The notes under the pieces were generated by a model, which had not been told where the DNA came from, ran no database searches, and was given only the letters and a program-made list of their open reading frames with translations. The position numbers and the translations under genes are program-made. Of a stretch of DNA of 64,000 nucleotides, positions 2 to 21,650 are shown piece by piece. Source of the stretch: Nemertoderma westbladi (lineage: Eukaryota; Animalia; Xenacoelomorpha); assembly GCA_032718475.1 (NCBI GenBank), contig JAUCBJ010006711.1, positions 163,881 to 227,880 of the forward strand. Direction: 5' to 3'. The stretch's first letter is position 1, and each line of letters starts with the position of its first letter.

Positions 2-2910
2 CCGAAGACGGATTACCATAGACCGAAACCAGAGCACAATACATCAAACGCATTACCAAGGCTCAGGCAATCATTGCCATATGCAGCAACGCAGGGGACT
101 ACAAGTCCACAGATAGCCGAAAGTAAGACCACACCATGGAACGAACAGGGGAACAATAACAACACGAATAAATATAACCCCAGTATGTCCAGTAGGCCGA
201 ATCCAAACAATAAGAATAGTAGGGACTTTGGTACAAACGCAGCTGCGATACGCAATGCGCTGTATAAGGAGGGCTACGACCCAAAGAGCAAATGCCAGCT
301 ACACGCAAATGCGCTTCATCAGACCATGAACTGCAGGTACTGGCAGGCGCTACCTAGGCAAGATCAGATAGATTATGCGTTGAGCAATAAAATCTGCTCG
401 CGATGTGTGATGAGTGGACATAGAGCAAGGGAATGCAAGGAGAAGCCGGTAAAGTTCGGTCAAAGGAGAGGCCAAACGATGGCAACGAGCACAGTAGGGG
501 CGAAGAAGAGAGGAACGGTGCTACTTGGAGTAGTACCCGTGCGAGTGATTGGGGAAGGCAATCGATCAGTAACAACACTAATGCTGGTCGATAGTGGAGC
601 AGCCTTCACATTAGTCGAGGAATGGGTGGCCGAAGAGATAGGATTGAGAACGAGGCCAAGCAGAATGGCGGTAACAACCATCTCTAGCAAAGATGAGATC
701 CTGGAGATGAGAACCGGACGGTGCGCAATTGCAGCAGTGGCACCGGGATGCGACTATGGGGCAACCATCGACCCCATCCAAGTGATAGAGTCAATTAATA
801 TCAATGCCAGGCGGCCAACCAACATCGAGGTCGAGCAATATAAATTCCTGGACGACATTGACTTCTCAATCCCAGATGTGGACATTAGGAAGGTATCCAT
901 CATAGTAGGAATGGACTGCCCAACGGCCCACGAAAGAATGCAAACGGTCTTCGGTGAAGACAAGCAGTGTGACCCGGTGGCGATATTAACACCATTCGTG
1001 CTGAGTGGCCCAATCAAGAGCAAGATACCATTTAGGATGTCGGAGACATCAGGATGCATGTTCGCGGGAACAATGCAGGAAATGGGTGATGAGGGAGCAG
1101 AGGAGCAGCTTAAAAGACTGCTCAAACAAGATTTCGAGGGACTGAAAGAGACCGGGGTCGGGACCTCGGTAGAAGACAAGCAGGCTTTACAAAGCGTGGA
1201 GGAATCGATGACATGCGATGAGGGGCGGTATACTATAGGAATGGTATGGAAACTACCGAAGATACCACTGCCCGATAATAGAGGGATGGTACTCACGAGA
1301 CTCCGCAAGCTGAAACAAACACTAAAACGGAGCCCCGAGAAGAATGAGTACATCCACAGAACGATTAAGAAGTACGTCGAGAAAGGATGGGCCGTGGAGT
1401 TACCGGTCGACGAGCCGAACACGGACAGGACATATTACCTGCCACTCCACGTGGCTTTAGACCCAAAGAAAGGTAAACTGCGGATGGTAGTTGACGCATC
1501 GGCAAAGACCAACGGGAAATGCTTAAACGACTATCTGTTAGAAGGTCCAAACATATACAACTCGGGCATAGAGGTCCTACTTAGATTTAGGAATGGGAAA
1601 CACGCCTTCACGTGTGACATAGAAGGCATGTTCAACCAAGTCCGCGTAACGAAAGAAGATAGCGACAGTCAACGCTTCTTATGGTATAACGGCGAGGAAG
1701 AACCGTCGATAATACCGGCATATAAGATGGTAGTACAAAACATGGGGGCCAAGTCGTCTTCATTTACGACGACTATGGCAGTGAGAGACACAGTGAAGGG
1801 GAAGGAAGATAGATACAGCACTAGGGCCGTCGATATGATTCGACGCGGCTTCTACGTAGACGACGGAATGGAGTCTGGAAATACGGTTAAGGAGATACTG
1901 GACACAGGGCGCGTGGTTCGCGACATCCTGAAAGGATCCGGCTTTAACCTGACCAAATTCCAATCCAGTTCGGAAGAATTTATCAAGGCGATAGAGGACA
2001 AGAGACCAGAATCTACCATGGATAATCCCACAACAGCCAAAGGGCAGGACATGGCGAACAAGAGAACAGAATCTCAACAGAAGGCATTGGGAATCGTGTG
2101 GAACAGGGAGACAGACGAACTGAAGTATCAGCTGAGCCAGGAGGGTGCAGACATCCACACGAAGAGGGGCTATGTATCGTATATAGCAAGGATATACGAT
2201 CCCCTAGGTCTAGCATCCCCATTATTAGTCACGGGGAAACAGATACTCAAGAGAGTATACAAATTGAAGGATGAGTGGGACGTAGAGGTACCAGAGGAAA
2301 TCAAGAAACAGTGGAGTAAGTGGACAGGAGACTTGGAGAAGATGGGAACATACAACATGCCACGAGTGTATTTCCCGGATGGGAACATGACGAATCTGGA
2401 CCTACACATGTTCTCCGATGCGTCGTTGGAGGCGTACAGAGCGGCACTCTATTTAGTACAACGAGAGGGGGCTCATAAGCCCAGACTGGCCTTTAGCAAA
2501 GCAAAGTCAACGCCGCCAGATTCAGCATCAGTTCCCAAGTTAGAATTGACAGCTGCGAGACTAGGAGTTAGAGCCACAGCCTACCTAGTGGATACTATTC
2601 CCAACATAGTGGAGACACACTACTGGACGGACTCTATGGTAGTGCTTGGTTGGCTACATAACGAAAGGACGAGATACCCAATATTCGTCGCAAATAAAGT
2701 GGACGAAATAAGGGCGACCACTGAACTGGAAAGGTGGCACTACTGCCCAACGGACGAGAACCCAGCGGACTTGTTGTCGAGGGGCGTGGTACGCCACACT
2801 TTCTTGAAGAAGGAAGTATTGTGGCAACATGGGCCACAATTTCTGAGCGATAAGGAGGCCTGGCCGCCGATGAGAAAGGTGGACCCGGGCTCAGAAGTAG
2901 TGTCAGAGGG
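2..2910 (+). pseudogene. Gag-Pol polyprotein fragment (Gag CCHC, aspartic protease, RT, RNase H); integrase absent
   Basis: Frame is open from base 2. Motifs: CSRCVMSGHRAREC, LVDSGA, YLPLHV, RMVVDAS, CDIEGMFNQV, FYVDDG, IYDPLG, MFSDAS, PKLEL, WTDS, NPADLLSRG. The last ~9 codons of the 74..2938 ORF run into the nested repeat. Confidence 0.95.
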
Positions 2911-3104
2911 TGATAAACAACCGCGACCTCTATACTAACAGCAGAACTGTTGAACAGACCAATACCCGTTAATATCCTTCTGCCAACCTAATAAGTTCTC
3001 GTCTAACCAATAAGACACAAAGACTGCTCTACTGTTAAGTAAAGGGGCTCAGGAGCGTGATATTACTAAATTGTAAGGGTTGCTAAATACAAAACCGCTA
3101 CTTA

Positions 3105-3120
3105 CCGTTAGATGGCGCTA
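3105..3120 (+). promoter_or_regulatory. CTCF/YY1-like motif CCGTTAGATGGCGCTA in the LTR (second copy at 20020-20035)
   Basis: Resembles the CTCF core consensus CCNNNAGRKGGCRS; motif similarity only. Confidence 0.3.
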
Positions 3121-4566
3121 ATCTGCCGTCCGCTAATATATTTACTAATTTTACACAACTCCTGCAAAATCGCTTGTTCCTTTCTCTACCGATTGCTCAA
3201 TAGAGAGCTAACTGTTCGAATCTATGAGCCACGCAGGAATAACCAAAACAATAAACCCGAGTCGGCTCCCTAAGCTTACTTAAGACGAGTGCGAGAGGCC
3301 TTGCACTCAGAGTATTCTTACGCCTAATTCTATCACTATTAAAGCACGCTATTACCTACGTCTTTTCTAATCGCGAATACTGGGGGTTCTCTAACGTAAT
3401 GTGTGAATGCGAGAATATTTAAAATATCAAAAATGGTACAGTAATTGTCTCTCGTGGATAGTACCACTCTGGGTCTAAAATTGCCTGCAGCTGGCTTTAG
3501 GCCAGCAAATCACTAGCGTTTCGTGCGTACCGAATAGTGCGTTCTAGCTGATTGTCCGCTAATGCAAATAACCGCTCAGCGTGAATAGTTTACAGTACTC
3601 TAATTATTACTTTAGCTACTCTCCGCTATGCTGCGTACTAATTCTTAATTTTACTAATCAATTACAGTCACAAATATTTAACAGCGTACTAATTACTAAG
3701 AGTTCCAGAATACGTAATTCTAATTTATCACGCAACAGGTTTCGCTAGTAATAGCCTAAATTGCCGTATTACTTTGACCTAATCAGTAACTAATTGTTGT
3801 AACTAAGAAATAGAAATCAATCAAAGAGAAAAGAGCGCCTACCTAAACATTCACAATCATAGGCACACTTCAGTAACACACCAATCAGCGTCAGCAATCA
3901 CAGTTCGCAATTATGCAGTTAACTACTGTATAGCCCACAATTATGCGACTCACTATTCGTACTACACGCTCAACGTTCGAAACGTTGTGATACGTGCAGG
4001 CCTCTCCCGGGTACATATAGGACTCCTAACTAACCTGATTCCCGCCCCCCTAATACTAAATAGAGACGAAACCTGGATCATCAGCCCCCTAATTACCGTA
4101 CCGGCGATTGGTCTGCGTACCACAGCGTTAACTTCCCGACCGCAACGGTGACCCCACGCCAGCGTTGCTCGCTTTGAATCCTCCGCTCTCCCTTAGTCGC
4201 CCAACCCCCCGATGTGCCCACCGCCCGCTGGCGCCTTAGCCCTCCATTACGCTAATAGCTACCGTAGCGGCGCATGCAAATCACAAAGTCTGACAGTCTC
4301 AGAAATCCCTTAGGATTATTGCGCAGGAAAGAATCACATAGAACCATTAATCAAAAGTAGAAATCATAGTTCAGTTGTAATTAGCAGTAATCGAAGGAAT
4401 TAATTGAGAAACACAAGCAAGAGTAATCGCACTAGCAAATCATTTCAAGAAATTAATCAAATTGCAAAAATACTCTAAAATCCGTCAAAATTGAATAGAG
4501 ACAGCTCAGCAAGTACAACAGCAGTGAAGGTTGAATCGATCGATAGGCTCTACCGGCACACCGCCA

Positions 4567-4573
4567 ATTTATA
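4567..4573 (-). promoter_or_regulatory. TATA box (TATAAAT) of the LTR; second copy at 21482-21488
   Basis: CCTATAAATTGG on the - strand, downstream of CCAAT/ATTGG motifs at ~4621 and ~4671, in the gag-pol sense orientation. Confidence 0.55.
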
Positions 4574-4986
4574 GGTGATCCGGATGGGATGATGCAATAG
4601 GGTGACTCAATCGCTCTCCTATTGGCTCTCCAGTCCATGCTAGCATTAGACCAACCTGGAAGCAGTTAATCCAATAAGGAGGCCGGATTGTAGCCCTATT
4701 GCTCAAATTATTACCATATATGGTAATGGTTCACGTCTCTGGCTGCTGAATGGCCAGGACGGCGTCCCTATGCTAGCCCTATCAAACTAATATCAGCAAG
4801 CACAAAATCCAGGGTCCGAATAAACTCGCTACCCTGGAACTATCTACATATATCCTAATACAAAATTACGTAGGTAGGGCTACATACTATACAAAATGGA
4901 TGGTTTCAAATATATGGGCGTTTTGATTTCCCTACCTAAATACCACTGCGTTATTATGCCTTATCTAAAATATCATGCTGCACAAT

Positions 4987-5390: not shown

Positions 5391-5590
5391 TTTGCTAGGG
5401 TAAGTGAAAGGAGTAAGCCAAACCCGCAGGTTTGTCTCCCCAATCACTTCCTTCGCCTCTCTCATAATATAAATTCCAAATAGCTCAACTAGTGTATATG
5501 AGTCTAGTCGAAAATTTCCAAATGCTACAATATACATCAGAGCGACGATGATGTATATATCTAGAGTCTGTCGCCCTGTGCTATAATGTA

Positions 5591-5869
5591 TTATCGACCC
5601 GCTCCTGGGTTCTTTGGGCTCGCTCCTCTCTTCCGCCCCCTTCCCAGATACACTAATCTACCTCCAGTCGACTCCGTTGACTGCGTCCGTGAGGCGTCAC
5701 TCCCCGGAACCGGCGACGATGTTCCCTGAGCCCCGACAGATTCCCGGCTCGTGCTTCTTCCTCGGCCTCGTCCCAATTGTCGTGCTCCTGTGGTCGCTTC
5801 TGCCAACTCTTCCTTATGCAGTTGCACTCGCGCCTTCTCCGACGCTCCCTGCGCCTTGCGCTGCAACCT
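5591..5869 (-). CDS. In-frame C-terminal continuation of the extra ORF beyond a single TAG (basic, RG-rich tail)
   Basis: Same frame as 5870..9298 (..GCA TAG AGG TTG CAG..); 92 further sense codons ending GRGRKRGASPKNPGAGR. Confidence 0.6.
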   Translation of the reverse strand, partial: RLQRKAQGASEKARVQLHKEELAEATTGARQLGRGRGRSTSRESVGAQGTSSPVPGSDASRTQSTESTGGRLVYLGRGRKRGASPKNPGAGR

Positions 5870-8800
5870 CTATGCTTCTATAATAGAGTGATAGTGATCG
5901 TCCTTGACTTGACGCTTGTCTTGGACCCCTCCTCCTGGTTCTTTCCGCGAGCCTTGAGCTCCAGCGGTCGTCGCTGTGGTCGCTGCGATCCTTTGTTCCT
6001 GTATCCTCTCAGCGGTCAATGAACCCACTGGCACATGAGTCAACAAGAATTCGTTGCGGTATTGTATAGCCGCCATCCTCCAATCACCTCGCGCGCGTAC
6101 CACTTTTCTAGTCTCCGTAAATACACCCTTCGTGATGCGATCGCAAATAGCAACGAAGTTCCATGTGTACTTATTGTCCATGTTCAATTGTCTGAAGTAC
6201 TCTCGAACTACGATAACTCCAGTGTTTTGTGGAAGGTCTTGAGCAGTTAGGATGAGCTCCTGATATTGTGGTAGCGATTGTAGATATGGCTCGTACGCAA
6301 CATGCGATGGGTCTACCGCCCAAAACCCATATCCCGCTTTAAATGGTAACCAACGCATCTGCGCTTGAATATGGTAATCCGCCACACTCTCCCACTTGTC
6401 TAACATCTCCCGAAGTAGGTTAGCGCTATGGTTTTGAAAGGAATCATCTCGCAGCTGACATCTCGCGCTACGATGTCCCTTTACCCCACAATATCCACAT
6501 TGAGAAATGAAGACGGTGCACGTGTGAAACGAATGGTCGGTCTCATTACACCAACGACAGACTTTATGTGCCGCCTCCACTACCGCGTCGCACGACTTTA
6601 GATTGTGCCTTGTGCTGCCGCACAACTTGCACCTACGCGCTTGTGGAAACCAGGCCCTCTCGTATATGAGGTCTCCAATCGGTTTCGCACTTCCTTCCTT
6701 CCCAATGTCTAATACGATGTCGTCCTCTCCAGTCAACGGTTGTCGATCCGGAACAAAGTAAACATCCTCGCCCTTGTCCTCTATCTCCAATATTTCCTCC
6801 CGCGTTCGTTTCGGATATGTCTTCTCCACCGGAAGATCTACTCCGAACACCTCTACTAACGTTTCCGGCCAGCCCTCCTTAACAGGTCTATCAGCCTCCG
6901 AGTGGAAGGGAGTACCAAACCCGCGGGTTTGATTCCCGAACCACTTCTCCAAAGCTTCTGGCGTCGGATATTCCATCGACGGTCGGTCTCCCAAATCTCC
7001 GATGTTCTGTCGATATACTCCTTCGAATATCGCTAATCCTCTCCTAATCATCGACGTATTCTCTAACGATTGGTTGAAGAACGGGGTTAAGAAACGCTTC
7101 ATCACGTCGGATTGGATTCCCCCTTTCGAGCGAACGTATTGATCTCCTCCGAATACCAATGGATGACGCTTCAAAACTCGCGCAACGATATCCGCTAATA
7201 AACAAGTCACCGTGTTCGACTCAAGCACCAAATAATATTGTAGCGACGCACGGGGTGGCGCGCAAATGTTCCAATACACTAACGCTTGCCGCTTGAAGTG
7301 GGATTTGAACTCCGCTCCCGGTGGCGTGTTGTATTCGCCATACGCCTCCTCATACTTCTTTTGCGTCTTTAACTTAAAGTCCCAATTATACAACAAGTGT
7401 GCTATAAAGCCCATACCAGTCTTGGCAGAGTTGGGATACTCCCTATAAATTCCAATATCCTGTGCCCATAGCAACAATAGCTTGGTGTCGACAAACGGTC
7501 TCGGCAATCTATCTTCCAGATCAGTCATGGCGTTGAAGTCGCTCTCCAAATCGCTCTGGACTCCCGATCCCACCTTGACGTAATCTTGGTTGAGAATAGC
7601 CTCTCTAACTTTCTTTGGTAACATCCTGGCGTCGATACGCTCCGCTCCGTGCATACCTCCTCGCCTGCATACCTCCAAAATCTGTTCCCTAGGATCCTTC
7701 CCCTTCCGATATTGTGTCGTTATGATGGGCTCCGGTCTCTCTCGATCCGCCCTCACACGCATAAACACATGAGTCACACCATCGGCCGCACGAATTTGAA
7801 TACACTTGCTGGTCAAACATTCCTGATGGGACCCTCCTTCATTGTCGTAGAACATCACCCTCCAATCCTGCAGCGATTCCTCCGTCTTCCTCCACTGACG
7901 CTGAATCTCGTCTGATGGGGTCCACATGCGCTCGATAGCCTTGTGGTCATCATATCGGGTATAAGAACCCTTCCTCCTCAGCCACGTCTGGTCTACCTCC
8001 TCGTCGTCTGGGAATGTAGCCACCGCGACCCATACCTTGATGTACTTATCCAACCATCCGAATAGCTTACTCTCCTTCCCCGGAGCTCCAATCTTATCCA
8101 ACGTGTCATAATCTGTGATCTGCATTGGGACATCACGCAAGAACTTCGCGCATAAAACTTCCCGTAGACAGTCAACGTTCCAATGGTCCGCCATTCTTAC
8201 CATCGGCAAGAATCGTATCGCTTCTCGCGACTCCGGATGATCTACTAATATCGCAGGTTCGGTGCCGTCGGAATAATACACCGGTCCGGGTTGAGATACG
8301 ACCTGTGGAACAAATCCGGTCACTCTCCTCGTCTCCTCTTGATGTCTATCCGCGGTCTTATTATACTCCGCTATCCTGTTCTCAAATAACTCTTTCGCCT
8401 TCGCCGCTCGCTCCTCCTGCCGCAACGCGTCTATGTCGTCCTGATGCTCAGGCGTGAGGCTTCTCACTCGGTGAGGTGAAGTAAACGTAGTCCAGGGACT
8501 CGAGAGCTCCAAACCCGCGGGTTTGGTACCCGAGTCCCGCGCCGCTTCGCGCCACGCCTCTAGATCCTTGTAGGCTCGGTACAGCGAAATGGCCGCTGCC
8601 GTCTCTATCAAACTGGGTGTCGAACAGGGTTTAATCTCCGTATACGGATCTAATGTCGTAACGGTCGGCGTAATGGGTCTCGGAGGTCGCTTTCCGCTGA
8701 AGTCGATACTGATCGTCGGGTTGCTCATCGGGTAACCTCCCTCGTTGTATCTAAGGAATTGGTGAGCTGGACATCGCGTTAATATCGGTTCCGGATGTTG

Positions 8801-9298
8801 CTCGTCTAGTCGGTCGGGAATCGCCACGTCCTGTTTATTCATGCATTCACCACACTTGTAGAAGAGCTTGTATACGCTGAAGACTTTCGGCGTCTCCTGA
8901 TCCTCGCCTCGAGTCCTCCGATACAGATGCATTCCGTCGAACTGGTCTCGGACTGCAGGTAGAGGCTCCTCATGTCGTAAATACATATTCATATGGTATA
9001 GTCGTGCGATTTCCTCGTCCGGATCTGCGCTAATGTCGCACACGTCCAAAGCGAAGTCGTAGGGATACCGCGTGCGATACTCTCTCCGCAAGACTTCCAT
9101 CCGGTCCCCCAACGCTCTCATTCTTTCTCTCCGTAATTCTTTATCATAACTTGGTTTGTACTTCCCGTTCAGCTCCATCACGGACCGCCCATGGTAGTAA
9201 ACGTTAGAGTCTTTACATCCTGGTCGCGCGAATGGTAGCTCCGCCTCCTCTCTGGCAGTAAATCCTCTGCGCGGTTGCGCTCTAATATCCCTCTCCAT
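5870..9298 (-). CDS. Extra ORF (ORF3, 1142 aa): DEDDy-like 3'-5' exonuclease domain plus three CCHC zinc knuckles
   Basis: ExoI MFYDNEG (~7840), CIQI, LPKKVREAILNQDYVKVGSGVQSD (ExoII, ~7570), FVDT, GMGFIAHLL, ExoIII-like QYYLVLE (~7230). Knuckles CKLCGSTRHNLKSC, CRWCNETDHSFHTC, CGYCGVKGHRSARC (~6455-6630). No signal peptide or TM segment seen. Confidence 0.8.
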   Translation of the reverse strand: MERDIRAQPRRGFTAREEAELPFARPGCKDSNVYYHGRSVMELNGKYKPSYDKELRRERMRALGDRMEVLRREYRTRYPYDFALDVCDISADPDEEIARLYHMNMYLRHEEPLPAVRDQFDGMHLYRRTRGEDQETPKVFSVYKLFYKCGECMNKQDVAIPDRLDEQHPEPILTRCPAHQFLRYNEGGYPMSNPTISIDFSGKRPPRPITPTVTTLDPYTEIKPCSTPSLIETAAAISLYRAYKDLEAWREAARDSGTKPAGLELSSPWTTFTSPHRVRSLTPEHQDDIDALRQEERAAKAKELFENRIAEYNKTADRHQEETRRVTGFVPQVVSQPGPVYYSDGTEPAILVDHPESREAIRFLPMVRMADHWNVDCLREVLCAKFLRDVPMQITDYDTLDKIGAPGKESKLFGWLDKYIKVWVAVATFPDDEEVDQTWLRRKGSYTRYDDHKAIERMWTPSDEIQRQWRKTEESLQDWRVMFYDNEGGSHQECLTSKCIQIRAADGVTHVFMRVRADRERPEPIITTQYRKGKDPREQILEVCRRGGMHGAERIDARMLPKKVREAILNQDYVKVGSGVQSDLESDFNAMTDLEDRLPRPFVDTKLLLLWAQDIGIYREYPNSAKTGMGFIAHLLYNWDFKLKTQKKYEEAYGEYNTPPGAEFKSHFKRQALVYWNICAPPRASLQYYLVLESNTVTCLLADIVARVLKRHPLVFGGDQYVRSKGGIQSDVMKRFLTPFFNQSLENTSMIRRGLAIFEGVYRQNIGDLGDRPSMEYPTPEALEKWFGNQTRGFGTPFHSEADRPVKEGWPETLVEVFGVDLPVEKTYPKRTREEILEIEDKGEDVYFVPDRQPLTGEDDIVLDIGKEGSAKPIGDLIYERAWFPQARRCKLCGSTRHNLKSCDAVVEAAHKVCRWCNETDHSFHTCTVFISQCGYCGVKGHRSARCQLRDDSFQNHSANLLREMLDKWESVADYHIQAQMRWLPFKAGYGFWAVDPSHVAYEPYLQSLPQYQELILTAQDLPQNTGVIVVREYFRQLNMDNKYTWNFVAICDRITKGVFTETRKVVRARGDWRMAAIQYRNEFLLTHVPVGSLTAERIQEQRIAATTATTAGAQGSRKEPGGGVQDKRQVKDDHYHSIIEA

Positions 9299-9405
9299 TA
9301 TGCCTCGCGTATATACATATATATATATCCCAATAAGTGCCGTTACGTAACCAACTACACTGTGGGTAAATCAGTTAGATGTCGCCGAAGGACAGACCTC
9401 CCGAA

Positions 9406-9428
9406 CCCCCCCCCCCCCCCCCCCCCCC
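9406..9428. repeat. C23 homopolymer (G23 on the element sense strand) in the pol-ORF3 spacer
   Basis: Directly visible; a (TA)n tract lies at ~9310-9328. Confidence 0.95.
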
Positions 9429-10026
9429 GCCTTCCAGCAGTTCAGGTTCGACTCTCTAGATCCCGTCTCTTCCTAACTAACTATCCTCTAACCTATTCCC
9501 ATGCATAGCGCAAAAACTTTGGAGATAACCAACCTTTGGAGATGGCCGTGACCAACTCACTTTTTGATGCCCAAACTACTCCCATTACTCGTACTAAACT
9601 ACAGTAGTTAGAAAGGACCATAGCCACAATACTCGACTATACCAAACCCACAGGTTTGATAATCGAACATCACACATCCTGCAAACTACTGAGTGGGGTC
9701 CATGTACGCCTCTGGTGCTACTAACCTTTAGCACCTTAGTTGCACTGTTGGCACCAATCTGTGGAAGTTGCTAAACTCAATTTACACTCCTACGTAATAT
9801 AGCCGTCACCATGGTTTCTAAATGCTATTTTCCAGGCTTCACAACTTTTCAAATTACTGTTTATCTATAGACGAATTCTAAAACGCGTCTATACACAGCG
9901 TCTGGAATTGTCTTGGGTTCACTTCTAATTTTTAAAATTTTGTAATTTTCCAAAAATTTTGAAAATAAAATTTTGTTTTGATACCCACCAGACAAAACTC
10001 AACGCAAATCACCACAACCCCGCTCC

Positions 10027-10063
10027 TATGCATTTCCTTGTATTTGCATACGAGGAATGCATA
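10027..10063 (-). other. Stem-loop just 3' of the pol stop codon, with a GCAA tetraloop on the sense strand
   Basis: Sense strand reads TATGCATTCCTCGTAT-GCAA-ATACAAGGAAATGCATA (one mismatch, one bulge). Confidence 0.6.
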
Positions 10064-10084
10064 CGATGTGAGTTGCGTCCAACA

Positions 10085-13000
10085 CTAACTCTGTTTTGAG
10101 ACAGGAGACAAATTATAATCTCCCGTCTCGATACGTGTCTCCTCTAATAACACAATATCTTGGACCGGTCGGTCCAAGGTGTGTAAACCATTAGTTTTAC
10201 ACTTTTTTGGGTGCGGACACTTGCACCTAATTTTCACAGTGACTGTGCGCACTATGTTTTGCACGTCTGGGTGTGTGTGCAAGATCACTCCAGTCTCCCA
10301 ATACTTTCTCTTGACAATGGGTTCGGTTATCAATACGTAGTCTCCCTTTTGGAGACTCCGAACCGTTTTGTACCACTTTGTTCTGGTGGATATGGTGGGA
10401 AGATAGTATTCCCGCCAATATTCCCAGAATTTGTACGCGACTAATTGAGTCATTTTCCAGCTCTTACGACTATATAGGTCGGCACTAATGGGTTCTGATG
10501 CCGGCACAAGAAATGCTGGACTCTGCATTAGCAAATGATTCGGCGTTAATGCAACACCGTCTGGCAACATAGCTATCGGCCTCGAGTTTAGGGTATGCTC
10601 GATTTCAATGAAAGCTGTGACCAGTTCGTCGTCGGTAAGTTGTTTGTTCACAGGCAATGTTTTGGCAATGGCCTGTTTTACAGAGCGAACCAAACGCTCC
10701 CAAATTCCTCCTCTCCAAGGACTTTCTGGAGTATTAAATCTCCATTCTACTCGTTGCGGCAAAAGTGCTGCAGAAATTTCCTTATTCTGTGCTGCTTTAT
10801 GAGCCGCGTTCAACTCGCTATTCCCTCCGACAAAGTTTGTACCCTTGTCAGAGTAGAACGCCTTTACTAGTCCTCTCCTGGCCATAAATCTCTTTAAGGC
10901 CAGGAGCAGAGATTTGGTCGACATGTCTGCCACACGCTCGATATGTATGGCTCTACTCGCCATACATGTCAGTAGCAGACCCCATCGCTTGTGGGTCAGC
11001 CGTCCACTCTTTGCTTCAATCGGACCAAAACAGTCCACCCCTGTATTCGTAAAGGGTGGGTCATATGCCTGCACTCTCGCTTCCGGGAGTTCAGCCATCT
11101 CCTGTTCCAATACTCTGGCGTTCACCCTCTTGCAAACCAGACAGGCGTCATACATAGTGCCGACTGCCCTGCTTGGCTGCAATAGAATGAATCGCTGTCT
11201 CGCTGCCGACAGACAGTGTAACTTTCCCGCGTGATGCAACCTCTTATGTATATCCCATAGAATCGCTCTTTGCAATTCTATCGGGTAACTAGGGATTATC
11301 ACTGGGAACCGAAACTGTGAGTTTATGTCGACAGTCTGGATTCTCGATCTATGACAAATCAAACCCTTATGGATTAATGGACTCCATTTTCTAAGGGGTT
11401 TATAGAGAACTGGTCGATGAGCCGATAATAGATGGAATTCTTTCGGGAAGGCACACATTTGATAATGTTTCAAATGCTTTAATTCCGCTTGATCAATCTC
11501 ATCCTCTGTCAGAGGTTGTTTCAATTTCCGAATTCGCTCACTATTGGTGCTCAATGGTTCTCTCAAATGTTTTGAATGTTTTAAACAAAGGTACGAAACG
11601 TATCGGCTTAACCACGCAGGTCTTTTACAAATTGTCAGCCAAGAGGCAGACGAATTTAGTAATTTGTCATAAATACTGCATGACTCTAATGCCAGCGACG
11701 GTTGTCCGCTAACTAATGGACGTTTCGAATCCAAACCCGCAGGTTTGGAAACCAAAGGATCCATTGTGTCGGTCATTTTCTGTCCGTCACTTACCAATTG
11801 TGACTCCGGTTTAGTCTGTAAGGGCGGTTTTATGTCATAACTTACCCTTCCTGACCTAATAGTCACGTAAGTCTGTTGGTCTGACAGGTCTCCGGGCCGC
11901 TCCAATGACTCTTCAGGCTGCTCCAATGACTCTTCAGGCCGCTCCAATGACTTAAGTTTGGCTTTAGACTTCGACTTAGAGACTTTCTCCACTTTGACTT
12001 CTGCATCTTCAGGCATCGGATTGGTCACTATCTTTAGTCGCTCTGGCCAATGTTCCTGTGTCCTCGTTAGAAAATCAGGTCCATGCAACCAAAACTCCTG
12101 CGACTCTTCCTGACAGAATTCCGCCGGCATTGCACCTCTCGAAGTTATGTCGGCCGGGTTCAACACTCCCGGACAATGTCTCCATTGTTCCTTCGTCGAA
12201 AAGTCAACGATCTGAGCGCGTCTATTGGCCACAAATGTCTTTAGTGCAATATTGTCGGCCGCAATGTATACTAACACCAAGGATGCGTCCGTCCAATAGA
12301 ATAAGGTCAATGTCGTGTCTAACTCCTCAGTTATTTGCTTACTTACCTCGACCGAAACTACAGCCGCCTGTAACTCTGCACGAGGGACAGTCATGTATTT
12401 GACCGGCATTGTCTTTGATCTAGAAGTCACAAAAGCCGTCTCAAACTTGTCCTGACTTACCTCTCGGCGAAGGTAGGCTACCATACCAAAACCGGTGTCA
12501 CTTGCGTCACTAAATAGGTGGAGCTCTAAATCAGCTGGGAATACCAGCTGATTCGGAAGGTAGGAACGGGGTACATCTATATTTTTCAATAGATGCAACT
12601 CGGCTTCCCACTCCCTCCACTGCTTTGCATGTATAGGAGATATTGGTTCGTCCCACTCTAAGTCGGACAACCAAATTTTCCTCATGCACGCTCGTGCCTG
12701 TAATATAACCGGACTGATAAAGTTCATCGGGTCAAATAGTCTACTCAATGTCGATAAGCAAATCCTCTTAGTCAAAACTTTGTCTGGGCTACTGGGCTCA
12801 AATCTAACTCTTACCTGGAACTTATCTGAGTTCGGGTTCCAAGCGAGTCCCAGTACTCGCGCCATGGGAATTGGTTCTACCCCCAATTCTATGTCTCCGC
12901 TCCCGCGATCCTTTACCGGGAACGACTCTAATAGGGCCTCCGAGTTCGTAGTGAACTTGGTCAGAGGAAATCCCCCTGTAGCCAAGCACTCCTGCAGGCC

Positions 13001-16000
13001 GTGAGCCACTTCTATGGCTTGTTCCGCTGTGTCCTTGGACACCAATCCGTCGTCCATATAGAAGTTTCTCAATATAGACTCGATTACTTCTACTGGATAC
13101 TTACCAATCTGGGCTGTTGCCGTTTTCTTTAAAACGAACAGCGTGCCATTCGGACTATCGCGGGCGCCAAATATCCTAACGTACATCTGGTATGTAACCA
13201 CTGGGCCGGATAAGTCTTCATTCTCAAACCAGAGAAATCGAAGGCTATCCTGGTCTGCCTTACAGGCTCTTACCTGGTGGAACATCGCCTCGATGTCACA
13301 AGTAAATGCGAATCGCCGCTGTCTAAAACGCAACAGTATTCCGATCAAATAGTTATTCAGGTTGGGACCATCCATCAACTCTGAATTCAGGGACATACCT
13401 CTATAGACTGCTGCGCAGTCGTTGACTACTCGGACTTTGTCTGGCTTGTCAGGGTGAGTCACATAGTGGTGTGGAAGGTAATAAGTCTGGTCTGTCACCA
13501 AGTCAGGGTCCTCTACCTTCCCAGCAAATCCCTTGGCGAAATAGTTGTTGATCTGGGCGCAATACTTCTCCCTAATGTCCGGATTCTTCAACAACCGAGC
13601 CCTTACTCCGTTCAATCTTTTCAAGGCTAAGTTGTAGTTGTTCTCCAACTTAGGTGGTTGTCGACGCCACAACATTCCAACTTCAAAATGTCCAGTCGGT
13701 AGTAGACGTATGGTATCTTCCATCATCTCCAACGACCGTTTCTCATCAGTAGACATGGCTAGGTCATATCCACCGGGTTCCATTGCGTCCCTATCCAGCC
13801 ATTCGACGGTTCTAGCTCCTGTCTCGAGGTCCTGGCGTATCAATTCCTTTTGTAATTCCTCCTCACTGTATTGGAAAATGTCTAGGTCTCGAGATTTAGC
13901 CACTTGACCCTCCACTATGTCTGTATAAGTCAAAACGTTAGTCAAATAGGTAGCGTGGGCCGCTGAACCAGACCCACGGGTCTGATAACAGTAGTCCTCG
14001 GGTTCACTATCTGTCCGGTCATTATGAAGTGGTTCCGACAACCTAACATTATCGGGAATCAACTCCTCATCTGACTCGCTAAAGTCACTATAGTGGTCAA
14101 TACAGGTTCTCCTAAACTCGTCTATGTCTGGTGGTTTTACTAACGGTGGTTGAGCTATAGGCTGTAATTCGTCGTATCTATTCATTGGCTTGTCGCCACC
14201 TGTAAACTCATAAGACATGGGTACTCGTGTATACCAACCTAGTATGGTCCTATGGGCATGTGGTCCATTGACATGCGGCTCAGCTGGTCTCGTTTCCCAT
14301 ATCTGGTGTGCGATCAGCTGTTCTGCACCAATCAACATAGAAACATTCCTATAACCTACCTGGTGTCTGGGTATCCTGAGCTTGTCAAAATACTCCTGTG
14401 CTATGGGACTCATCGGCGGCACCTTACCTAACTGCCTGCCGAATCCCTTCATAGCTAGACACTTAAATCCGTCCAATGGCAAAGCTTTCCGTTCTTGTCG
14501 AGTATGCTGGTCTCTCGGAAGTAGGGAATCTAGTTCCACCGAAATTCTGTGTCCCTTGAGGTCACCTACCCCATGCATAGACTTCAACTCTATTTGGATC
14601 TCCTCGGCGTCCTGGAAGCTAGAAACAGCTCTCGCCACTTCCTCGTCGATATACGATAATGTGGACGCAGTGTCCAACATCACATATATTCGCTTCGATC
14701 CCTTATCGCTGGTGAGTTTCACCGGAATCACGCTAAATATTTCCGACGTGGCCGATGATAAATACGTCCGCGCGCTGGTCGATGAACTATCCGCGGTGAA
14801 ACCTTGGCAGGTCACTTCTCTCGCGCTCGACTCGCCATCCTCGTCCGACGAACCTGGTTGGTAACCATCGTCCTGGATGCCAGTGTACGTATTCCTCCTT
14901 ATCGATACGGGTTCTTTGCTCCCCTTCCTTTGAGGATTTCGCTGTAAGTAACGGTCCGTTGGGGTATGGAAATCCGCATGTAGCAACTTGTGATGTAGTC
15001 TGCCGCATTCCATGCATCCGTCCTTGCTGTTCGGGCACTGCCGCCGTACATGTCCTGGCGCAAGACAAGCCCAACAGGTGTCCAACGTCCGCACTTGAAC
15101 TCTTCTCTGTTCTGAATTTAATTCCTTGAACCGTCTGCAACTATCTAACTTATGGTCGTCAGATCTTACCTCCTTTAGTAAACAGTATTGGCAACCTACA
15201 AATCCATCCGGCAACTCCTGTTGCTTTAACCTAGGTCTATCTAACCGCTCACCTGACCATACTCGCGAGTCTGATCTAAAGGCTGGGGTATTCGAATTAT
15301 ATCTGTCTACTGAGTTATAAGTCACAGTGGTCCTGTCATCGTCAAAACTTACCATAGACTTACCGGTAACAGGTTTAGACTCTCTCATATTCTCTTCTGA
15401 GAAGTTTGATTTCATCTCTGCTACTGCGTCTGTGGCTATCATGTCATGAATATGCTGAAGTGTCAATACTTTACCTTGGCCCTCCAACTTATTCTCTAAT
15501 TTGCGCCATTTCTGTCGGTAACGCATGTTTAGACGTCTTATTACGCTCTTTAAAACTTCGGCGTGATCACCATGATGAGGTAGATTCACCGTCCTCAAGA
15601 TGTCCAATGCGTTCGAAATAGCGTTCGCTAAATTCAACAGCTCAAACGGAGTTGTAATCCTTCCGCCCTTACCCAAGTCTTCTACTATCGACTGCGCCAT
15701 CTTGGTTTTATTCCCGTAGATGTCGCTAAGCGTCTTCATTGCTAACTCGAATGCTCTTTCGTTGCCGACGAAATTATCAGCAATGGCTCTAGGTTCTCGA
15801 TGGAGCATCTGAAGCAAATAGTTGAACTTCTCGTTGGGAGTAAAGGTGCTGTTGGTTAGCTGCTCGTCGACATAGGTTTTAAAGGTCCTCCAGTGCTTGT
15901 GGTTGCCCATAAACTTCTGGGGTTGTTGCGTCGGCAGTCCTTGCCTAGCAGCAAACTTACCTATGTCCCTAAGGGTTGCGTCGTTCCGGGTTAACAAATG

Positions 16001-17788
16001 GTTTAGTTCCGCAGGGTTGTTAAGTCTGGTCCTTTCCCGGTGGTTCCAACTTACCTGCTCCGCGTTGGTCCTTCTTTCCTTATAGTTTCGGGACTTCTGA
16101 CGTCTCATTTCTTCCTCTTCATCGCTTGACTCGGTGTCAGTCCTTAGCGCTCGCGATGATTTGCGCGCCGAGGCCCTGACCCAAGCATCCTGAATAAATC
16201 TTTCTGCCGAATTTTCGAAATTGGGATTATGGATATTCGGGACAGGCGTCCTTACCTGAGGTCTATGTGGTATAGTTTCCTCCGATATGCGTACTCGTTG
16301 ACTAGGCTGGACTTTATCTAACTCAGGCCTGCTGGGATTAGAATTACTTCTTACCTGGGCTGCTTCCTTTAACCGTAGGTTGCTAAGCATGTCCGTTATA
16401 GGTTGGATGTGCGGCGATATAGCTTGCGCTAAACTAGCACTTAACTCATCCCTCGTAATAAATTCCTGGCTAGGGTTCTGTTGTATAGTCGGCTCTATCT
16501 GAGTAATCCGCTGTCTCTCATATGATCCCTCTTCCGGTTTAACCCGGAAGTTCTCCGTCGAACTGGGTCGGCGCTCCGTCCGCGTATTCCAAACCCTCGG
16601 GTTCGGTTCGCCAAGTACTCGTTCCGTCGGAGTTTCTTCTCTAAATTCTCCGTTCTCGCGTTCGATATATAGTGGTGCGGTGTTCCGATGACGTAGATCC
16701 TGAGCGATGGGTGAAACACTAATACCAACTGGCGTGCGATATGTAGAGAATGGTTTAGCGATCCGTGTACTCGTAATAGCTGGACCGAGTATAGGAATTC
16801 TGGTCGTCGTTGACTCGCGTATAGTCGGAGTTCTCGCTTCCTGTTCGGCCTTCTGCAGTGCGAACAGTTCTCGCAACTCTGTCCCCACACTCGCCCCACA
16901 TTCTTCGAGCATTCGCATCCCCTTCTCGGCGATTTCGTTCGCCTTCCTAGTCCGTTCTTCGCTCTCTAAACTTAATCTCGCACTTTCCAACTGCGCCAGT
17001 TTACGCTCTTCTTCTTCCCTCGCTCGTCTCGCTGCGCTCTCTTCTTCTACTCGCGACCTTTCTTCATACAATGCGCGTCTTCTTTTCTCGATCTCGAGTT
17101 CGCGTTCCTTGCGTCCGCGTTCGAGTTGAAGCTCGCGCTCCTTCTGTTCACGATCGAGTTTCTTGCGCTCGCGTTCGGCTTGGAGTTCGCGTTTCTTCGC
17201 TTCCTGTTCGCATTCAAGTTGGAGTTCGCGTTCTCTCTGTTCGCGTTCGAGTTGGAGTTCGCGTTTCTTCGCTTCCCGCTCGCATTCAAGTTGGAGTTCG
17301 CGTTCTCTCTGTTCGCGTTCGAGTTCCTCGCGCTCGCGCTCGGCTTGGAGTTCGCGTTCCCTTTGCTCGCGTTCCGCTCGCTCGCGCTTACTTATCTCTT
17401 CCAACTCTCGTAACTCTGCGTCCAACTTACGTGTGCGCTCCCGTTCCCGCTCGGCTTCCTTCCGTGCTTCCTGTGCACGCAAAACTTCCGCCTGCTGTTC
17501 GTCTAGTCGGCGTCTTCTCTCCTCCGCCGAGTTGTGAGAAACAAGGGATCTAGCACATATTACCTTACCTCGCGCGTGACTAACCTGGGAATCGCCGCTG
17601 TCTCTAGATGCATCGTCGGTTGGAGTCAACGTCCTCTGTTGGATGTTCTCCGTCGTCGGTAGCACCTGACCTGGTACCACCACTCCATTCTGCATCAGCC
17701 AGCTAGTAACTTCCCTCTGATACCGGCGCTCCTCTTTATCCTGCGTCTCTTCTCGCTCCACTAAGTCTCTCAACTCTGCGTCACTCAC
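10085..17788 (-). CDS. BEL/Pao Gag-Pol polyprotein (Gag, protease, RT, RNase H, integrase)
   Basis: Three BEL knuckles (CQYC..H..C, CWACLAPGHVRRQC, CMECGRLHHKLLH); PR MLDTAST; RT YLPHH, CDIEAMFHQV, FYMDDG; RH LFSDAS, PRAEL, WTDA, NPADITSRG; IN HKRLHH..CLVC, GVDCFGP, YSDKGTNF, WERLVRSVK; C-terminal RPVQDIVLLE. Confidence 0.97.
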   Translation of the reverse strand: MSDAELRDLVEREETQDKEERRYQREVTSWLMQNGVVVPGQVLPTTENIQQRTLTPTDDASRDSGDSQVSHARGKVICARSLVSHNSAEERRRRLDEQQAEVLRAQEARKEAERERERTRKLDAELRELEEISKRERAEREQRERELQAEREREELEREQRERELQLECEREAKKRELQLEREQRERELQLECEQEAKKRELQAERERKKLDREQKERELQLERGRKERELEIEKRRRALYEERSRVEEESAARRAREEEERKLAQLESARLSLESEERTRKANEIAEKGMRMLEECGASVGTELRELFALQKAEQEARTPTIRESTTTRIPILGPAITSTRIAKPFSTYRTPVGISVSPIAQDLRHRNTAPLYIERENGEFREETPTERVLGEPNPRVWNTRTERRPSSTENFRVKPEEGSYERQRITQIEPTIQQNPSQEFITRDELSASLAQAISPHIQPITDMLSNLRLKEAAQVRSNSNPSRPELDKVQPSQRVRISEETIPHRPQVRTPVPNIHNPNFENSAERFIQDAWVRASARKSSRALRTDTESSDEEEEMRRQKSRNYKERRTNAEQVSWNHRERTRLNNPAELNHLLTRNDATLRDIGKFAARQGLPTQQPQKFMGNHKHWRTFKTYVDEQLTNSTFTPNEKFNYLLQMLHREPRAIADNFVGNERAFELAMKTLSDIYGNKTKMAQSIVEDLGKGGRITTPFELLNLANAISNALDILRTVNLPHHGDHAEVLKSVIRRLNMRYRQKWRKLENKLEGQGKVLTLQHIHDMIATDAVAEMKSNFSEENMRESKPVTGKSMVSFDDDRTTVTYNSVDRYNSNTPAFRSDSRVWSGERLDRPRLKQQELPDGFVGCQYCLLKEVRSDDHKLDSCRRFKELNSEQRRVQVRTLDTCWACLAPGHVRRQCPNSKDGCMECGRLHHKLLHADFHTPTDRYLQRNPQRKGSKEPVSIRRNTYTGIQDDGYQPGSSDEDGESSAREVTCQGFTADSSSTSARTYLSSATSEIFSVIPVKLTSDKGSKRIYVMLDTASTLSYIDEEVARAVSSFQDAEEIQIELKSMHGVGDLKGHRISVELDSLLPRDQHTRQERKALPLDGFKCLAMKGFGRQLGKVPPMSPIAQEYFDKLRIPRHQVGYRNVSMLIGAEQLIAHQIWETRPAEPHVNGPHAHRTILGWYTRVPMSYEFTGGDKPMNRYDELQPIAQPPLVKPPDIDEFRRTCIDHYSDFSESDEELIPDNVRLSEPLHNDRTDSEPEDYCYQTRGSGSAAHATYLTNVLTYTDIVEGQVAKSRDLDIFQYSEEELQKELIRQDLETGARTVEWLDRDAMEPGGYDLAMSTDEKRSLEMMEDTIRLLPTGHFEVGMLWRRQPPKLENNYNLALKRLNGVRARLLKNPDIREKYCAQINNYFAKGFAGKVEDPDLVTDQTYYLPHHYVTHPDKPDKVRVVNDCAAVYRGMSLNSELMDGPNLNNYLIGILLRFRQRRFAFTCDIEAMFHQVRACKADQDSLRFLWFENEDLSGPVVTYQMYVRIFGARDSPNGTLFVLKKTATAQIGKYPVEVIESILRNFYMDDGLVSKDTAEQAIEVAHGLQECLATGGFPLTKFTTNSEALLESFPVKDRGSGDIELGVEPIPMARVLGLAWNPNSDKFQVRVRFEPSSPDKVLTKRICLSTLSRLFDPMNFISPVILQARACMRKIWLSDLEWDEPISPIHAKQWREWEAELHLLKNIDVPRSYLPNQLVFPADLELHLFSDASDTGFGMVAYLRREVSQDKFETAFVTSRSKTMPVKYMTVPRAELQAAVVSVEVSKQITEELDTTLTLFYWTDASLVLVYIAADNIALKTFVANRRAQIVDFSTKEQWRHCPGVLNPADITSRGAMPAEFCQEESQEFWLHGPDFLTRTQEHWPERLKIVTNPMPEDAEVKVEKVSKSKSKAKLKSLERPEESLEQPEESLERPGDLSDQQTYVTIRSGRVSYDIKPPLQTKPESQLVSDGQKMTDTMDPLVSKPAGLDSKRPLVSGQPSLALESCSIYDKLLNSSASWLTICKRPAWLSRYVSYLCLKHSKHLREPLSTNSERIRKLKQPLTEDEIDQAELKHLKHYQMCAFPKEFHLLSAHRPVLYKPLRKWSPLIHKGLICHRSRIQTVDINSQFRFPVIIPSYPIELQRAILWDIHKRLHHAGKLHCLSAARQRFILLQPSRAVGTMYDACLVCKRVNARVLEQEMAELPEARVQAYDPPFTNTGVDCFGPIEAKSGRLTHKRWGLLLTCMASRAIHIERVADMSTKSLLLALKRFMARRGLVKAFYSDKGTNFVGGNSELNAAHKAAQNKEISAALLPQRVEWRFNTPESPWRGGIWERLVRSVKQAIAKTLPVNKQLTDDELVTAFIEIEHTLNSRPIAMLPDGVALTPNHLLMQSPAFLVPASEPISADLYSRKSWKMTQLVAYKFWEYWREYYLPTISTRTKWYKTVRSLQKGDYVLITEPIVKRKYWETGVILHTHPDVQNIVRTVTVKIRCKCPHPKKCKTNGLHTLDRPVQDIVLLEETRIETGDYNLSPVSKQS
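17060..17400 (-). repeat. Coding tandem repeats giving an E/R-rich coiled coil in Gag (RELQxExE units, 33-36 bp)
   Basis: TTGGAGTTCGCGTT recurs on the + strand; protein RERELQAERE/KRELQLEREQ. Confidence 0.85.
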
Positions 17789-19379: not shown

Positions 19380-19830
19380 ACGCACTACCGTACATTCACT
19401 GTATGCAGTACAGTAAGTAAAACAGTACACCAACCTAACAGCCTAATGATACTGTGTGTGGTACGGCAAAACAAATGTCCCTTCTACCGTCCGCAGTAAC
19501 AACAATCAGCCTAATGTACTACTGTACTATCGTACGCAGCCAGTGAATACAGTAATCTAAACTAACAGCCTAAAAGAATATACTCAATGTTCTACCGTAC
19601 GCTAGCCTATAGCCTACAGCAGACGATCACGTGCTCCAATTTATTGCCTAATACTATGATATTACTATCAGCCTAAGAATACTCTATTGACCGCTGCAAG
19701 CAACAGCCAATAACGCGTATTACTGATACGAAGTATCAGTAAATCTAAATCTTCACGGCCTAAGAATATACTCTATGTCCTACTGTACGTGGTAGGCCTA
19801 CAGCAGACAATAATGCGCGTATTACTGATA
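19380..19830. repeat. Degenerate direct repeats in the 5' leader/U5 region
   Basis: GCCTAA(A)GAATATACTC..GCCTACAGCAGAC at ~19568 and ~19758; CGCGTATTACTGATA at ~19714 and ~19816; several CAGCCTAA units. Confidence 0.6.
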
Positions 19831-21541: not shown

Positions 21542-21650
21542 GGACGGTGGGATTGAGACGCCCTTCCCACACAAAAAATTTAAAATAAAAAAAAAAATAA
21601 AATAATAGTACATAATAGGTACGCAGTTAGTAGGCAGAAGTTAGCCAGTA

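What the first reader, a model, noticed from the sequence alone, without database searches (positions are those of the whole stretch)
5870..9298. BEL/Pao retrotransposon with a 3'-5' exonuclease + triple zinc-knuckle gene in the env slot
Seen: a 1142-aa sense ORF between pol and the 3' LTR with DxE (YDNEG), KVGSGVQSD and Yxxx[E] motifs, followed by three Cx2Cx4Hx4C knuckles; no env-like hydrophobic segments. Established: this motif layout matches WRN-exo/EXD2/Mut-7/RNase D type DEDDy nucleases; BEL/Pao elements normally have only gag-pol, sometimes env. From memory, DEDDy ORF3s have been reported in Ty3/gypsy-type elements and Penelope-like terminons of bdelloid rotifers; I know of no description in BEL/Pao or fused to three knuckles. 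Inference: an RNA-binding exonuclease that could trim or degrade piRNA/siRNA (anti-silencing), process element RNA or primer 3' ends, or proofread for an unusually long (~19 kb) element.
Basis: partly seen in the sequence, partly recalled or inferred. Interest (0 to 1): 0.9.

Follow-up and report, generated by a model that had tools for sequence, protein, structure and literature searches.

The report
BEL/Pao retrotransposons carry knuckled exonuclease gene
A jumping gene of the BEL/Pao type carries, where retroviruses carry their envelope gene, a third gene for a protein with a predicted RNA-trimming enzyme fold and three zinc knuckles; related genes sit in the same place in distantly related elements and are kept by selection, and the protein likely trims RNA ends to protect the element from the host's RNA defences (untested).

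Summary
Confirmed and extended. The 1142-aa ORF (minus strand, co-oriented with a BEL/Pao gag-pol) lies between pol and the 3' LTR of a young element (LTR copies 99.8% identical, at least 18.6 kb). Pfam finds nothing in it, but aa 462-717 fold as a DnaQ-like DEDDy exonuclease (Z 12-13 to Pol I exo, Nibbler, WRN, RNase D) with a full acid set (D485, E487, D583, Y689, E693), followed by three CCHC knuckles and a conserved helical domain. Eight distant homologues share the layout; 8 of 12 related metagenome loci have BEL pol directly upstream, in 9-10 kb elements whose pol is only about 30% identical. A second, broken member lies in the same window. Selection keeps the gene (37 of 40 listed variants synonymous; dN/dS 0.07-0.18 in relatives). 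The closest architecture is trypanosome RNase D (exonuclease plus four knuckles, trims U tails). DEDDy third genes are known from rotifer gypsy-like elements; I found none described in BEL/Pao or with knuckles, but Repbase/GyDB were not searchable. Best guess: an RNA 3'-end trimmer countering host RNA surveillance. Proofreading for length is not supported. Also found: nine evenly spread hairpins in this element only.

The parts
5870..9298 (-). ORF3, 1142 aa (P0001): N-terminal region, DEDDy exonuclease, linker, three CCHC knuckles, conserved helical C-domain
   Evidence: 37 of 40 listed variants among copies synonymous
7148..7915 (-). DnaQ-like DEDDy exonuclease domain, aa ~462-717; predicted metal ligands D485, E487, D583, E693 and Y689
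   Evidence: AlphaFold model pLDDT 67; VIA Z 12-13 to DnaQ-fold enzymes; Foldseek EXD2 1e-4; family alignment
6458..6631 (-). three Cx2Cx4Hx4C zinc knuckles, aa 890-947
   Evidence: family profile matches Lin28 knuckles (2.6e-8) and the trypanosome RNase D finger domain (9.5e-7)
6179..6436 (-). conserved helical C-domain (FExxADxG..T..R...wGF pattern in the family), aa ~955-1040
   Evidence: alignments; model pLDDT 72 with the knuckles; best Z 2.8
7919..9298 (-). N-terminal ~460 aa, absent from the homologues; function unknown, kept by selection
   Evidence: homologues are 514-727 aa with best stretches at aa 557-1039; 16 of 18 listed variants in this part synonymous
9360..9380 (-). splice-acceptor-like signal (CTAAC, pyrimidine run, CAG) 62 nt upstream of the ATG, in the open frame; inferred route to an env-like spliced mRNA
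   Evidence: sequence; inference, no RNA reads
10085..17986 (-). BEL/Pao gag-pol frame (P0002): coiled-coil, DUF1759, triple Cys-His box, protease, RT (YMDD), RNase H, integrase
17785..18537 (-). 5' part of gag in another frame; this copy is probably broken by a frameshift in the overlap
   Evidence: copies in the runs differ by an indel in the overlap
2911..4575 (-). 3' LTR (part shared with the 5' copy; the true LTR may extend to about 5100)
19826..21490 (-). 5' LTR, probably truncated at its outer end
   Evidence: no target-site duplication seen
5419..18235 (-). nine dispersed hairpins CARACY-YGYG-RGTNTGG, starting (sense) at 18235, 16605, 15273, 13984, 11747, 9658, 8525, 6931, 5434; two lie inside ORF3
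   Evidence: 8 copies at <=2 mismatches vs shuffle mean 0.02; ninth by matrix scan; 91.7% of cells paired, 3 pairs with double changes
22502..24818 (+). second member of the ORF3 family (P0004): intact-looking exonuclease, knuckles missing, C-domain in another frame (broken copy); probably the ORF3 of the older BEL element whose pol lies at 2-2910
   Evidence: HMM of the 8 outside homologues hits it at 3.7e-18, C-domain at 0.0023; codon usage r=0.67 with the left pol
2..2910 (+). older BEL/Pao pol (P0003) interrupted by the element
   Evidence: 31.5% identical to the element's RT-RNase H

Best explanation
ORF3 is an accessory gene of BEL/Pao retrotransposons, kept by purifying selection, whose protein is predicted to be an active 3'-5' exoribonuclease with its own RNA-reading zinc knuckles, and it likely trims RNA 3' ends to counter the host's RNA surveillance of the element. 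Steps: (1, shown) the gene lies after pol in unrelated BEL lineages and is selected as strongly as integrase; (2, predicted) the DEDDy fold and all four metal-binding acids are intact; (3, inferred from trypanosome RNase D) the knuckles and C-domain grip single-stranded U/G-containing RNA and feed its 3' end to the exonuclease across a flexible linker; (4, inferred) it is made from an env-like spliced mRNA, apart from Gag-Pol, so it can act in the cell rather than only in the particle; (5, inferred, least certain) its substrates are host marks on element RNA, such as oligo-U tails, or small silencing RNAs and their precursors.
For: Fold: all 50 listed VIA rows are DnaQ-like, top Z 12.0-12.8, rmsd 3.2-3.7 over 162-178 residues; D485/E487 end strand 1, D583 follows strand 4, Y689/E693 lie in the last long helix. 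Four acids present in 10 of 12 family proteins examined; all 7 copies of the L004-L012 family that cover the domain keep ExoI DxE and ExoIII YxxxD. Selection. Linkage: 8 of 12 loci. Architecture precedent: TbRND, exonuclease plus four CCHC fingers, where the finger domain is needed for RNA binding and U-tail trimming (PMC7797062); the Atlas's nearest cluster for homologue P0006 is that family at 0.86, a lead only. Host uridylation restricts LINE-1 (PMC6191937 abstract). No transmembrane segment in P0001, L003 or L009 ORF3.
Against: No activity, substrate or transcript shown. The model is moderate (pLDDT 67, 9 sequences) and active-site geometry could not be measured. The last acid is E, not D, in P0001 and 3 other members, and ExoII is E in the L009 family; this may lower activity. 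One homologue (P0005) has lost most of the exonuclease motifs and doubled the knuckle-C module, so binding alone can persist. The uridylation precedent is for a non-LTR element; that paper never mentions LTR elements. Conserved acids do not separate counter-defence from ordinary replication chores. Piwi-bound piRNAs are usually 2'-O-methylated and resist such trimmers (recalled).
Confidence: 0.42

Rival explanations
1. Housekeeping enzyme of the replication cycle: it is packaged with the genomic RNA through its knuckles and trims the tRNA primer, strong-stop cDNA, RNase H leftovers or cDNA 3' ends before integration.
For: DnaQ-fold relatives act on ssDNA as well as RNA (top VIA rows include Pol I exo and WRN); proposed for rotifer ORF3s (PMC5408684; PMC6431247); no canonical primer-binding site next to this copy's 5' LTR; selection equal to integrase fits a core role.
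Against: L003, L007 and L009 carry the gene yet have ordinary TGG primer sites; BEL/Pao elements are described with gag, pol and at most env, so they replicate without it; it is a separate ORF, not part of Gag-Pol.
Confidence: 0.25
2. RNA-binding adaptor in the manner of Egalitarian or EXD1: the exonuclease fold and knuckles bind the element's RNA (for example the nine hairpins) for export, transport or packaging, and cutting is secondary.
For: Egalitarian and Exd1 are among the fold matches (Z 10.7, 11.8); knuckles resemble Lin28's; nine hairpins with G-containing four-base loops lie on the sense strand; P0005 keeps knuckles but not the catalytic set.
Against: Catalytic acids are kept in 10 of 12 proteins across 20-25% identity; the hairpins are absent from L003, L006, L007, L008, L009 and from both flanking BEL pieces, so they are not the family's partner; Gag's own Cys-His box is an equally good reader.
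Confidence: 0.17
3. Proofreading exonuclease that lets reverse transcriptase copy an unusually long genome.
For: This element is at least 18.6 kb; DnaQ folds proofread in DNA polymerases.
Against: Relatives with the gene measure about 9.9 kb (L003), 10.4 kb (L007) and 9.35 kb (L009); the domain is not fused to RT; knuckle-plus-exonuclease matches RNA trimmers.
Confidence: 0.05
4. Captured host gene riding along, or a gene that limits the element or benefits the host.
For: LTR elements capture ORFs after pol (PMC6431247); rotifer ORF3s showed no clear departure from neutrality within the genome.
Against: dN/dS 0.07-0.18 between element subfamilies, 37 of 40 synonymous, no common indel in the ORF; no cellular gene was among the 8 hits (contexts of 7 of them unseen).
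Confidence: 0.08

Closest known systems
DEDDy-exonuclease ORF3 of bdelloid rotifer Juno and Vesta LTR retrotransposons and Athena/Terminon elements (Rodriguez et al. 2017, PMC5408684; passages and section 3.1 read)
   Same: Enzymatic third ORF in the env position, RNase D-like DEDDy fold, intact acids with a D-to-E change (DEED there; DEED in the L009 family, DEDE here), no transmembrane segment, activity untested.
   Different: Those elements are rotifer lineages, not BEL/Pao (Pao occurs once, BEL not at all in the paper); no CCHC array or C-domain is described for their ORF3s; here one architecture is shared by BEL lineages only ~30% identical in pol. Their sequences could not be compared.
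Trypanosoma brucei RNase D, TbRND (Gao et al. 2021, PMC7797062; abstract and two result sections read)
   Same: DEDD exonuclease followed by tandem CCHC fingers; both parts matched (exonuclease Z 11.1; finger domain 9.5e-7; Atlas 0.86 for P0006).
   Different: Cellular mitochondrial gene, four fingers, 28-aa linker; here three knuckles, ~170-aa linker, an extra C-domain, and a mobile element. TbRND is not the top structural match, so orthology is not shown.
EXD2 / WRN exonuclease / Nibbler (Mut-7) / NrnC group, Pfam DNA_pol_A_exo1
   Same: Fold and motif order.
   Different: Below Pfam detection (no family at E<=1), 10-16% identity, ~40-aa insertion, ExoIII acid E.
BEL/Pao elements with env (Roo, Tas, Cer7/Cer13, Atlas, mosquito gB-like)
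   Same: Third ORF after pol, probably spliced.
   Different: Not a glycoprotein; no hydrophobic segment.

Membership tests
BEL/Pao (Belpaoviridae) | BEL-specific domains Peptidase_A17, DUF1759, DUF5641 | tested here: met
   (1.3e-38, 1.1e-8, 1.6e-16); L003 likewise
BEL/Pao (Belpaoviridae) | triple Cys-His box in Gag with a final Cx2Cx3Hx4H-type finger | tested here: met
   aa 932, 971, 991 of P0002; feature defined in PMC554778
BEL/Pao (Belpaoviridae) | order protease, RT, RNase H, integrase | tested here: met
   LDTA 1104, YMDD, DAS 1827, HHCC 2247, DCFGP 2318
BEL/Pao (Belpaoviridae) | TG..CA LTRs, target-site duplication, tRNA primer site, polypurine tract | tested here: inconclusive
   window copy: CA end present, outer end of 5' LTR probably lost, no duplication, no TGG within 70 nt of the 5' LTR; relative L009 has TGT..ACA, 5-nt duplication, TGG site and purine tract
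BEL/Pao (Belpaoviridae) | RT tree placement among the seven superfamilies | not testable with these tools
   no reference RT set could be loaded
DnaQ-like DEDDy exonucleases | RNase H-like DnaQ fold | tested here: met
DnaQ-like DEDDy exonucleases | ExoI DxE, ExoII D, ExoIII Yx3D | tested here: met
   D485/E487, D583, Y689; the last acid is E693, a conservative change shared with P0004, P0006, P0012
DnaQ-like DEDDy exonucleases | Pfam PF01612 gathering score | tested here: not met
   no family at E<=1 for P0001; P0006 E=0.2: divergent, undetected subfamily
DnaQ-like DEDDy exonucleases | metal-dependent 3'-5' exonuclease activity | not testable with these tools
   needs an assay
Finger-bearing RNase D (TbRND type) | exonuclease followed by tandem CCHC fingers | tested here: met
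   three rather than four fingers
Finger-bearing RNase D (TbRND type) | common descent with TbRND rather than convergence | tested here: inconclusive
   Z 11.1, below or tied with other DEDDy enzymes; Atlas 0.86, 163 shared features, a lead only
Finger-bearing RNase D (TbRND type) | preference for U-rich RNA | not testable with these tools
   needs an assay
env-type ORF3 | transmembrane segment of a fusion glycoprotein | tested here: not met
   maximum 19-residue hydropathy 1.34
Rotifer Juno/Vesta DEDDy ORF3 | sequence kinship with those ORF3s | not tested
   their sequences were not among any tool's results
Pseudo-nuclease adaptors (EXD1 type) | loss of catalytic acids | tested here: not met
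   acids kept in 10 of 12 proteins

The most novel reading that the evidence does not exclude
An old, widespread and so far unnamed group of BEL/Pao elements encodes its own counter-defence ribonuclease: a knuckle-guided trimmer that erases host U tails from element RNA or destroys silencing small RNAs, the first retrotransposon-borne enzyme aimed at RNA surveillance; in this giant element it or Gag may also read nine evenly spaced genomic hairpins.
Probability: 0.3. Interest if true: 0.88.

Novelty: new variant of a known kind. Interest (0 to 1): 0.66.

Why it matters
BEL/Pao elements are described with gag, pol and at most env. A conserved enzymatic third gene, invisible to Pfam and selected as hard as integrase across lineages 30% identical in pol, is a new accessory module for the least studied LTR group. 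Why LTR elements carry DEDDy nucleases has been open since 2017; here the attached knuckles give a handle on the substrate and a single soluble protein that can be assayed, so the question becomes directly testable. If it counters uridylation or small-RNA silencing it would be a transposon-encoded anti-surveillance enzyme.

Tried and rejected
Pfam on P0001 and P0004: nothing at E<=1. Word-indexed homologue searches: none for P0001 aa 470-960 or P0004; the alignment search returned only one of its own members. phmmer of the domain against PDB gave only a rotavirus VP4 chance hit; a poorly aligned exonuclease-only profile found nothing. Viral contigs: no relative in three scans. No genome is held for the window. 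Contig look-up by protein was closed, so the context of 7 of the 8 protein homologues is unseen; P0010 matches the 2.5-kb locus L001, too short to show pol. The knuckle/C-domain model has no clear structural match (Foldseek best E=1 to Lin28; best Z 2.8); this does not show a new fold. The N-terminal 460 aa were not folded (both jobs used) and the Atlas did not answer for them. Tree of 11 exonuclease domains: no supported branch, long branches, so origin and number of acquisitions are open. No RNA holder listed; run X4 is only guessed to be RNA and is kept as contigs, so expression and splicing were not tested. Rfam: no family in 2900-26600; no tRNA gene. Two integrase dN/dS values above 1 (L010, L012; 73 and 32 codons) were dropped as probable out-of-frame overlaps, and L007's exonuclease dS was saturated. 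Apparent ExoI losses in L006 and L010 were frame artefacts. MAFFT alignments A1 and A9 misplaced ExoI of P0001 and were not used for the exonuclease fold. Rejected: env-like role; proofreading for length; neutral cargo; knuckles as a copy of the Gag box (family profile scores it only E=0.2); hairpins as a protein motif (three different reading phases, two non-coding). Novelty searches: searches found no BEL/Pao exonuclease paper; two older Genome Research papers on nematode Cer elements were not held.
Full report
Observation. The stretch 5870-9298 is one open frame of 1142 codons on the minus strand. It lies 787 nt downstream of a 2633-codon frame with the BEL/Pao markers Peptidase_A17, DUF1759 and DUF5641, a triple Cys-His box, protease, YMDD reverse transcriptase, RNase H and integrase. 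A 1665-nt direct repeat with 3 mismatches flanks both, so the insertion is young and at least 18,580 nt long. The outer end of the 5' repeat is probably lost; I saw no target-site duplication and no TGG primer site within 70 nt of the 5' LTR. The 5' part of gag is in another frame and this copy is probably broken there.

What the protein is. Pfam finds nothing and two word-indexed searches found nothing. HMMER over 1.84 billion representatives gave 8 proteins at E<=0.001, 514-727 aa; all 8 carry an exonuclease-like part (degenerate in P0005) and a knuckle array followed by a conserved C-domain. They are singletons or a pair, 1 of 9 cluster members named, as 'hypothetical protein'. A profile of these 8 alone finds exactly two frames in the window: ORF3 (3.5e-21) and a second ORF at 22502-24547 (3.7e-18). 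With the corrected alignment AlphaFold gives pLDDT 67; Foldseek's 10 matches at E<=0.001 are all EXD2, and all 50 rows of the independent VIA search are DnaQ-fold, led by Pol I exonuclease, diDNase, NrnC, Nibbler, WRN and RNase D at Z 12.0-12.8. The family profile reaches EXD2 by sequence at 1.7e-6 and its knuckles match Lin28 and the trypanosome RNase D finger domain better than retroviral nucleocapsids. D485, E487, D583, Y689 and E693 sit on the expected elements; four acids are present in 10 of 12 family proteins (P0010 lacks its first motif as called, P0005 is degenerate).

Linkage. One scan of metagenome contigs gave 12 loci from three assemblies by contig prefix. Eight have BEL pol directly upstream on the same strand (L003, L004, L006-L010, L012); three have too little upstream DNA (L001, L002, L011) and one is a fragment without pol (L005). 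L003 is an intact 9.9-kb element with Peptidase_A17 at 2.8e-47; L009 has TGT..ACA LTRs, a 5-nt duplication, a primer site and a purine tract. Nine of the 12 loci are one family in one assembly, so the independent cases are two assemblies plus the window. RT-RNase H identity between the window element, the flanking older element and L003 is 30-32%, ORF3 identity 16-25%. The second exonuclease gene in the window shares codon usage with the interrupted pol on the left (r=0.67; T at fourfold sites 0.04 and 0.09 versus 0.19-0.26 in the element), so it is probably that element's ORF3 (inference). A tree of the domains resolved nothing.

Selection. Thousands of contigs of the same organism label lie on ORF3 at under 90 to over 99% identity (4283 in X1), with no indel at 10% share. 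Of the 40 best-supported variants listed (124 more not shown) 37 are synonymous, against 0.336 expected for random transitions (p 9e-15); 16 of 18 in the N-terminal part. In the L004-L012 family, against L009, dN/dS is 0.11-0.18 for the exonuclease (5 values of 8; one saturated, two not covered), 0.07-0.13 for knuckles and C-domain (8 of 8) and 0.08-0.17 for integrase (4 values; two short overlaps dropped, two not covered); L003 versus L002 gives 0.09. These pairs share a reference and are not independent.

How it most likely works. The only solved enzyme with this layout that my searches met is TbRND, whose four CCHC fingers are needed for RNA binding and for trimming U-rich 3' ends (PMC7797062, abstract and sections 12-13). 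I infer the same division of labour here. A branch-point, pyrimidine run and CAG just upstream of the ATG suggest an env-like spliced mRNA; untested. The target is the weakest step. Hosts mark retroelement RNA by uridylation (LINE-1; PMC6191937, abstract and a term search only) and by small RNAs, and most BEL/Pao elements replicate without a third gene, which favours a host-facing role (0.42) over a replication chore (0.25), a binding adaptor (0.17), passive or host-benefit cargo (0.08) or proofreading (0.05). My confidence that it is an active knuckle-guided exonuclease of some substrate is about 0.75.

Hairpins. The element, and nothing else in the window, holds 8 copies of a 16-nt palindrome at <=2 mismatches (shuffle mean 0.02) and a ninth weaker one. 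On the sense strand 91.7% of cells pair, with double changes at 3 of 8 pairs (8 of 500 shuffles as high; the structure was derived from these sequences). Five related elements and both flanking pieces lack it, so it is not the family's partner; it may relate to the size of this genome.

What is known. DEDDy ORF3s were described in rotifer Juno/Vesta elements and Terminons (PMC5408684, passages and section 3.1; PMC6431247 passages; PMC6338049 passages). The ICTV profile (PMC8742986, whole text) and the metazoan survey (PMC3118150, passages, no 'exonuclease'; supplement 9, lengths up to 22.8 kb) list only gag, pol and env for BEL/Pao; passages of PMC9094657, PMC554778, PMC13524379 and PMC11662393 add env types only. 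Seven searches found no BEL/Pao exonuclease or exonuclease-knuckle ORF. Limits: Repbase, GyDB and subscription papers were not searchable, bioRxiv supplements were closed, and I have an unverified recollection that an exonuclease was once noted in a nematode Cer element; two older papers were not held. Earlier AI notes of this scan report RRP6-like and dead DEDDh cargo in gypsy elements (unchecked), which makes exonuclease cargo a recurring theme and lowers surprise; none matched this sequence or all of the BEL words.

Verdict. Real, selected, lineage-spanning accessory gene; new variant of a known kind (enzymatic ORF3), new for BEL/Pao and in architecture as far as I could search; interest 0.66.

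Noticed in passing
window 5419-18235, minus strand: Nine copies of a hairpin (stem CARACY/RGTNTG, loop YGYG) spaced 1.1-2.2 kb through gag, pol, ORF3 and both flanking non-coding parts, none in the LTRs, in three reading phases; G-U pairs fall on the sense strand and the sense strand folds better in 7 of 8 tested. Absent from five related elements. Possible dispersed packaging or export signals, or sites of a dimeric DNA-binding protein.
   Followed up: partly
window 22502-24818 (+) with 2-2910 (+): Second ORF3 family member, knuckles lost and C-domain out of frame; shares strand, skew and codon usage with the interrupted pol on the left, so probably one older element split by the insertion and a deletion.
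   Followed up: partly
window 9730-9765 (-) and 19045-19082 (+): A ~35-nt segment containing a primer-site-like TGGTGCCAACAG occurs twice in opposite orientation, once before ORF3 and once in the 5' leader; unexplained.
   Followed up: partly
window 19500-19830: No TGG primer site follows the 5' LTR; the leader has short degenerate repeats instead.
   Followed up: partly
window 9408-9430 (-): A run of about 21 G just upstream of the splice-acceptor-like signal of ORF3.
   Followed up: no
window 8760-8860 (-), ORF3 aa ~148-179: CxxC ... CxxH pattern in the N-terminal region, a possible further zinc site.
   Followed up: no
window 21622-22047: About ten tandem copies of a 32-nt unit upstream of the second exonuclease gene.
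   Followed up: no
window ~26100-64000: Satellite of about 90 copies of a 413-416 nt unit, 32% GC.
   Followed up: no
P0005: Homologue with a degenerate exonuclease and two copies of the knuckle-plus-C-domain module.
   Followed up: no
L003:6841-6961: In this intact 9.9-kb relative the ORF3 frame overlaps the end of pol, and gag and pol are separated by a single in-frame stop at 3194-3196.
   Followed up: no
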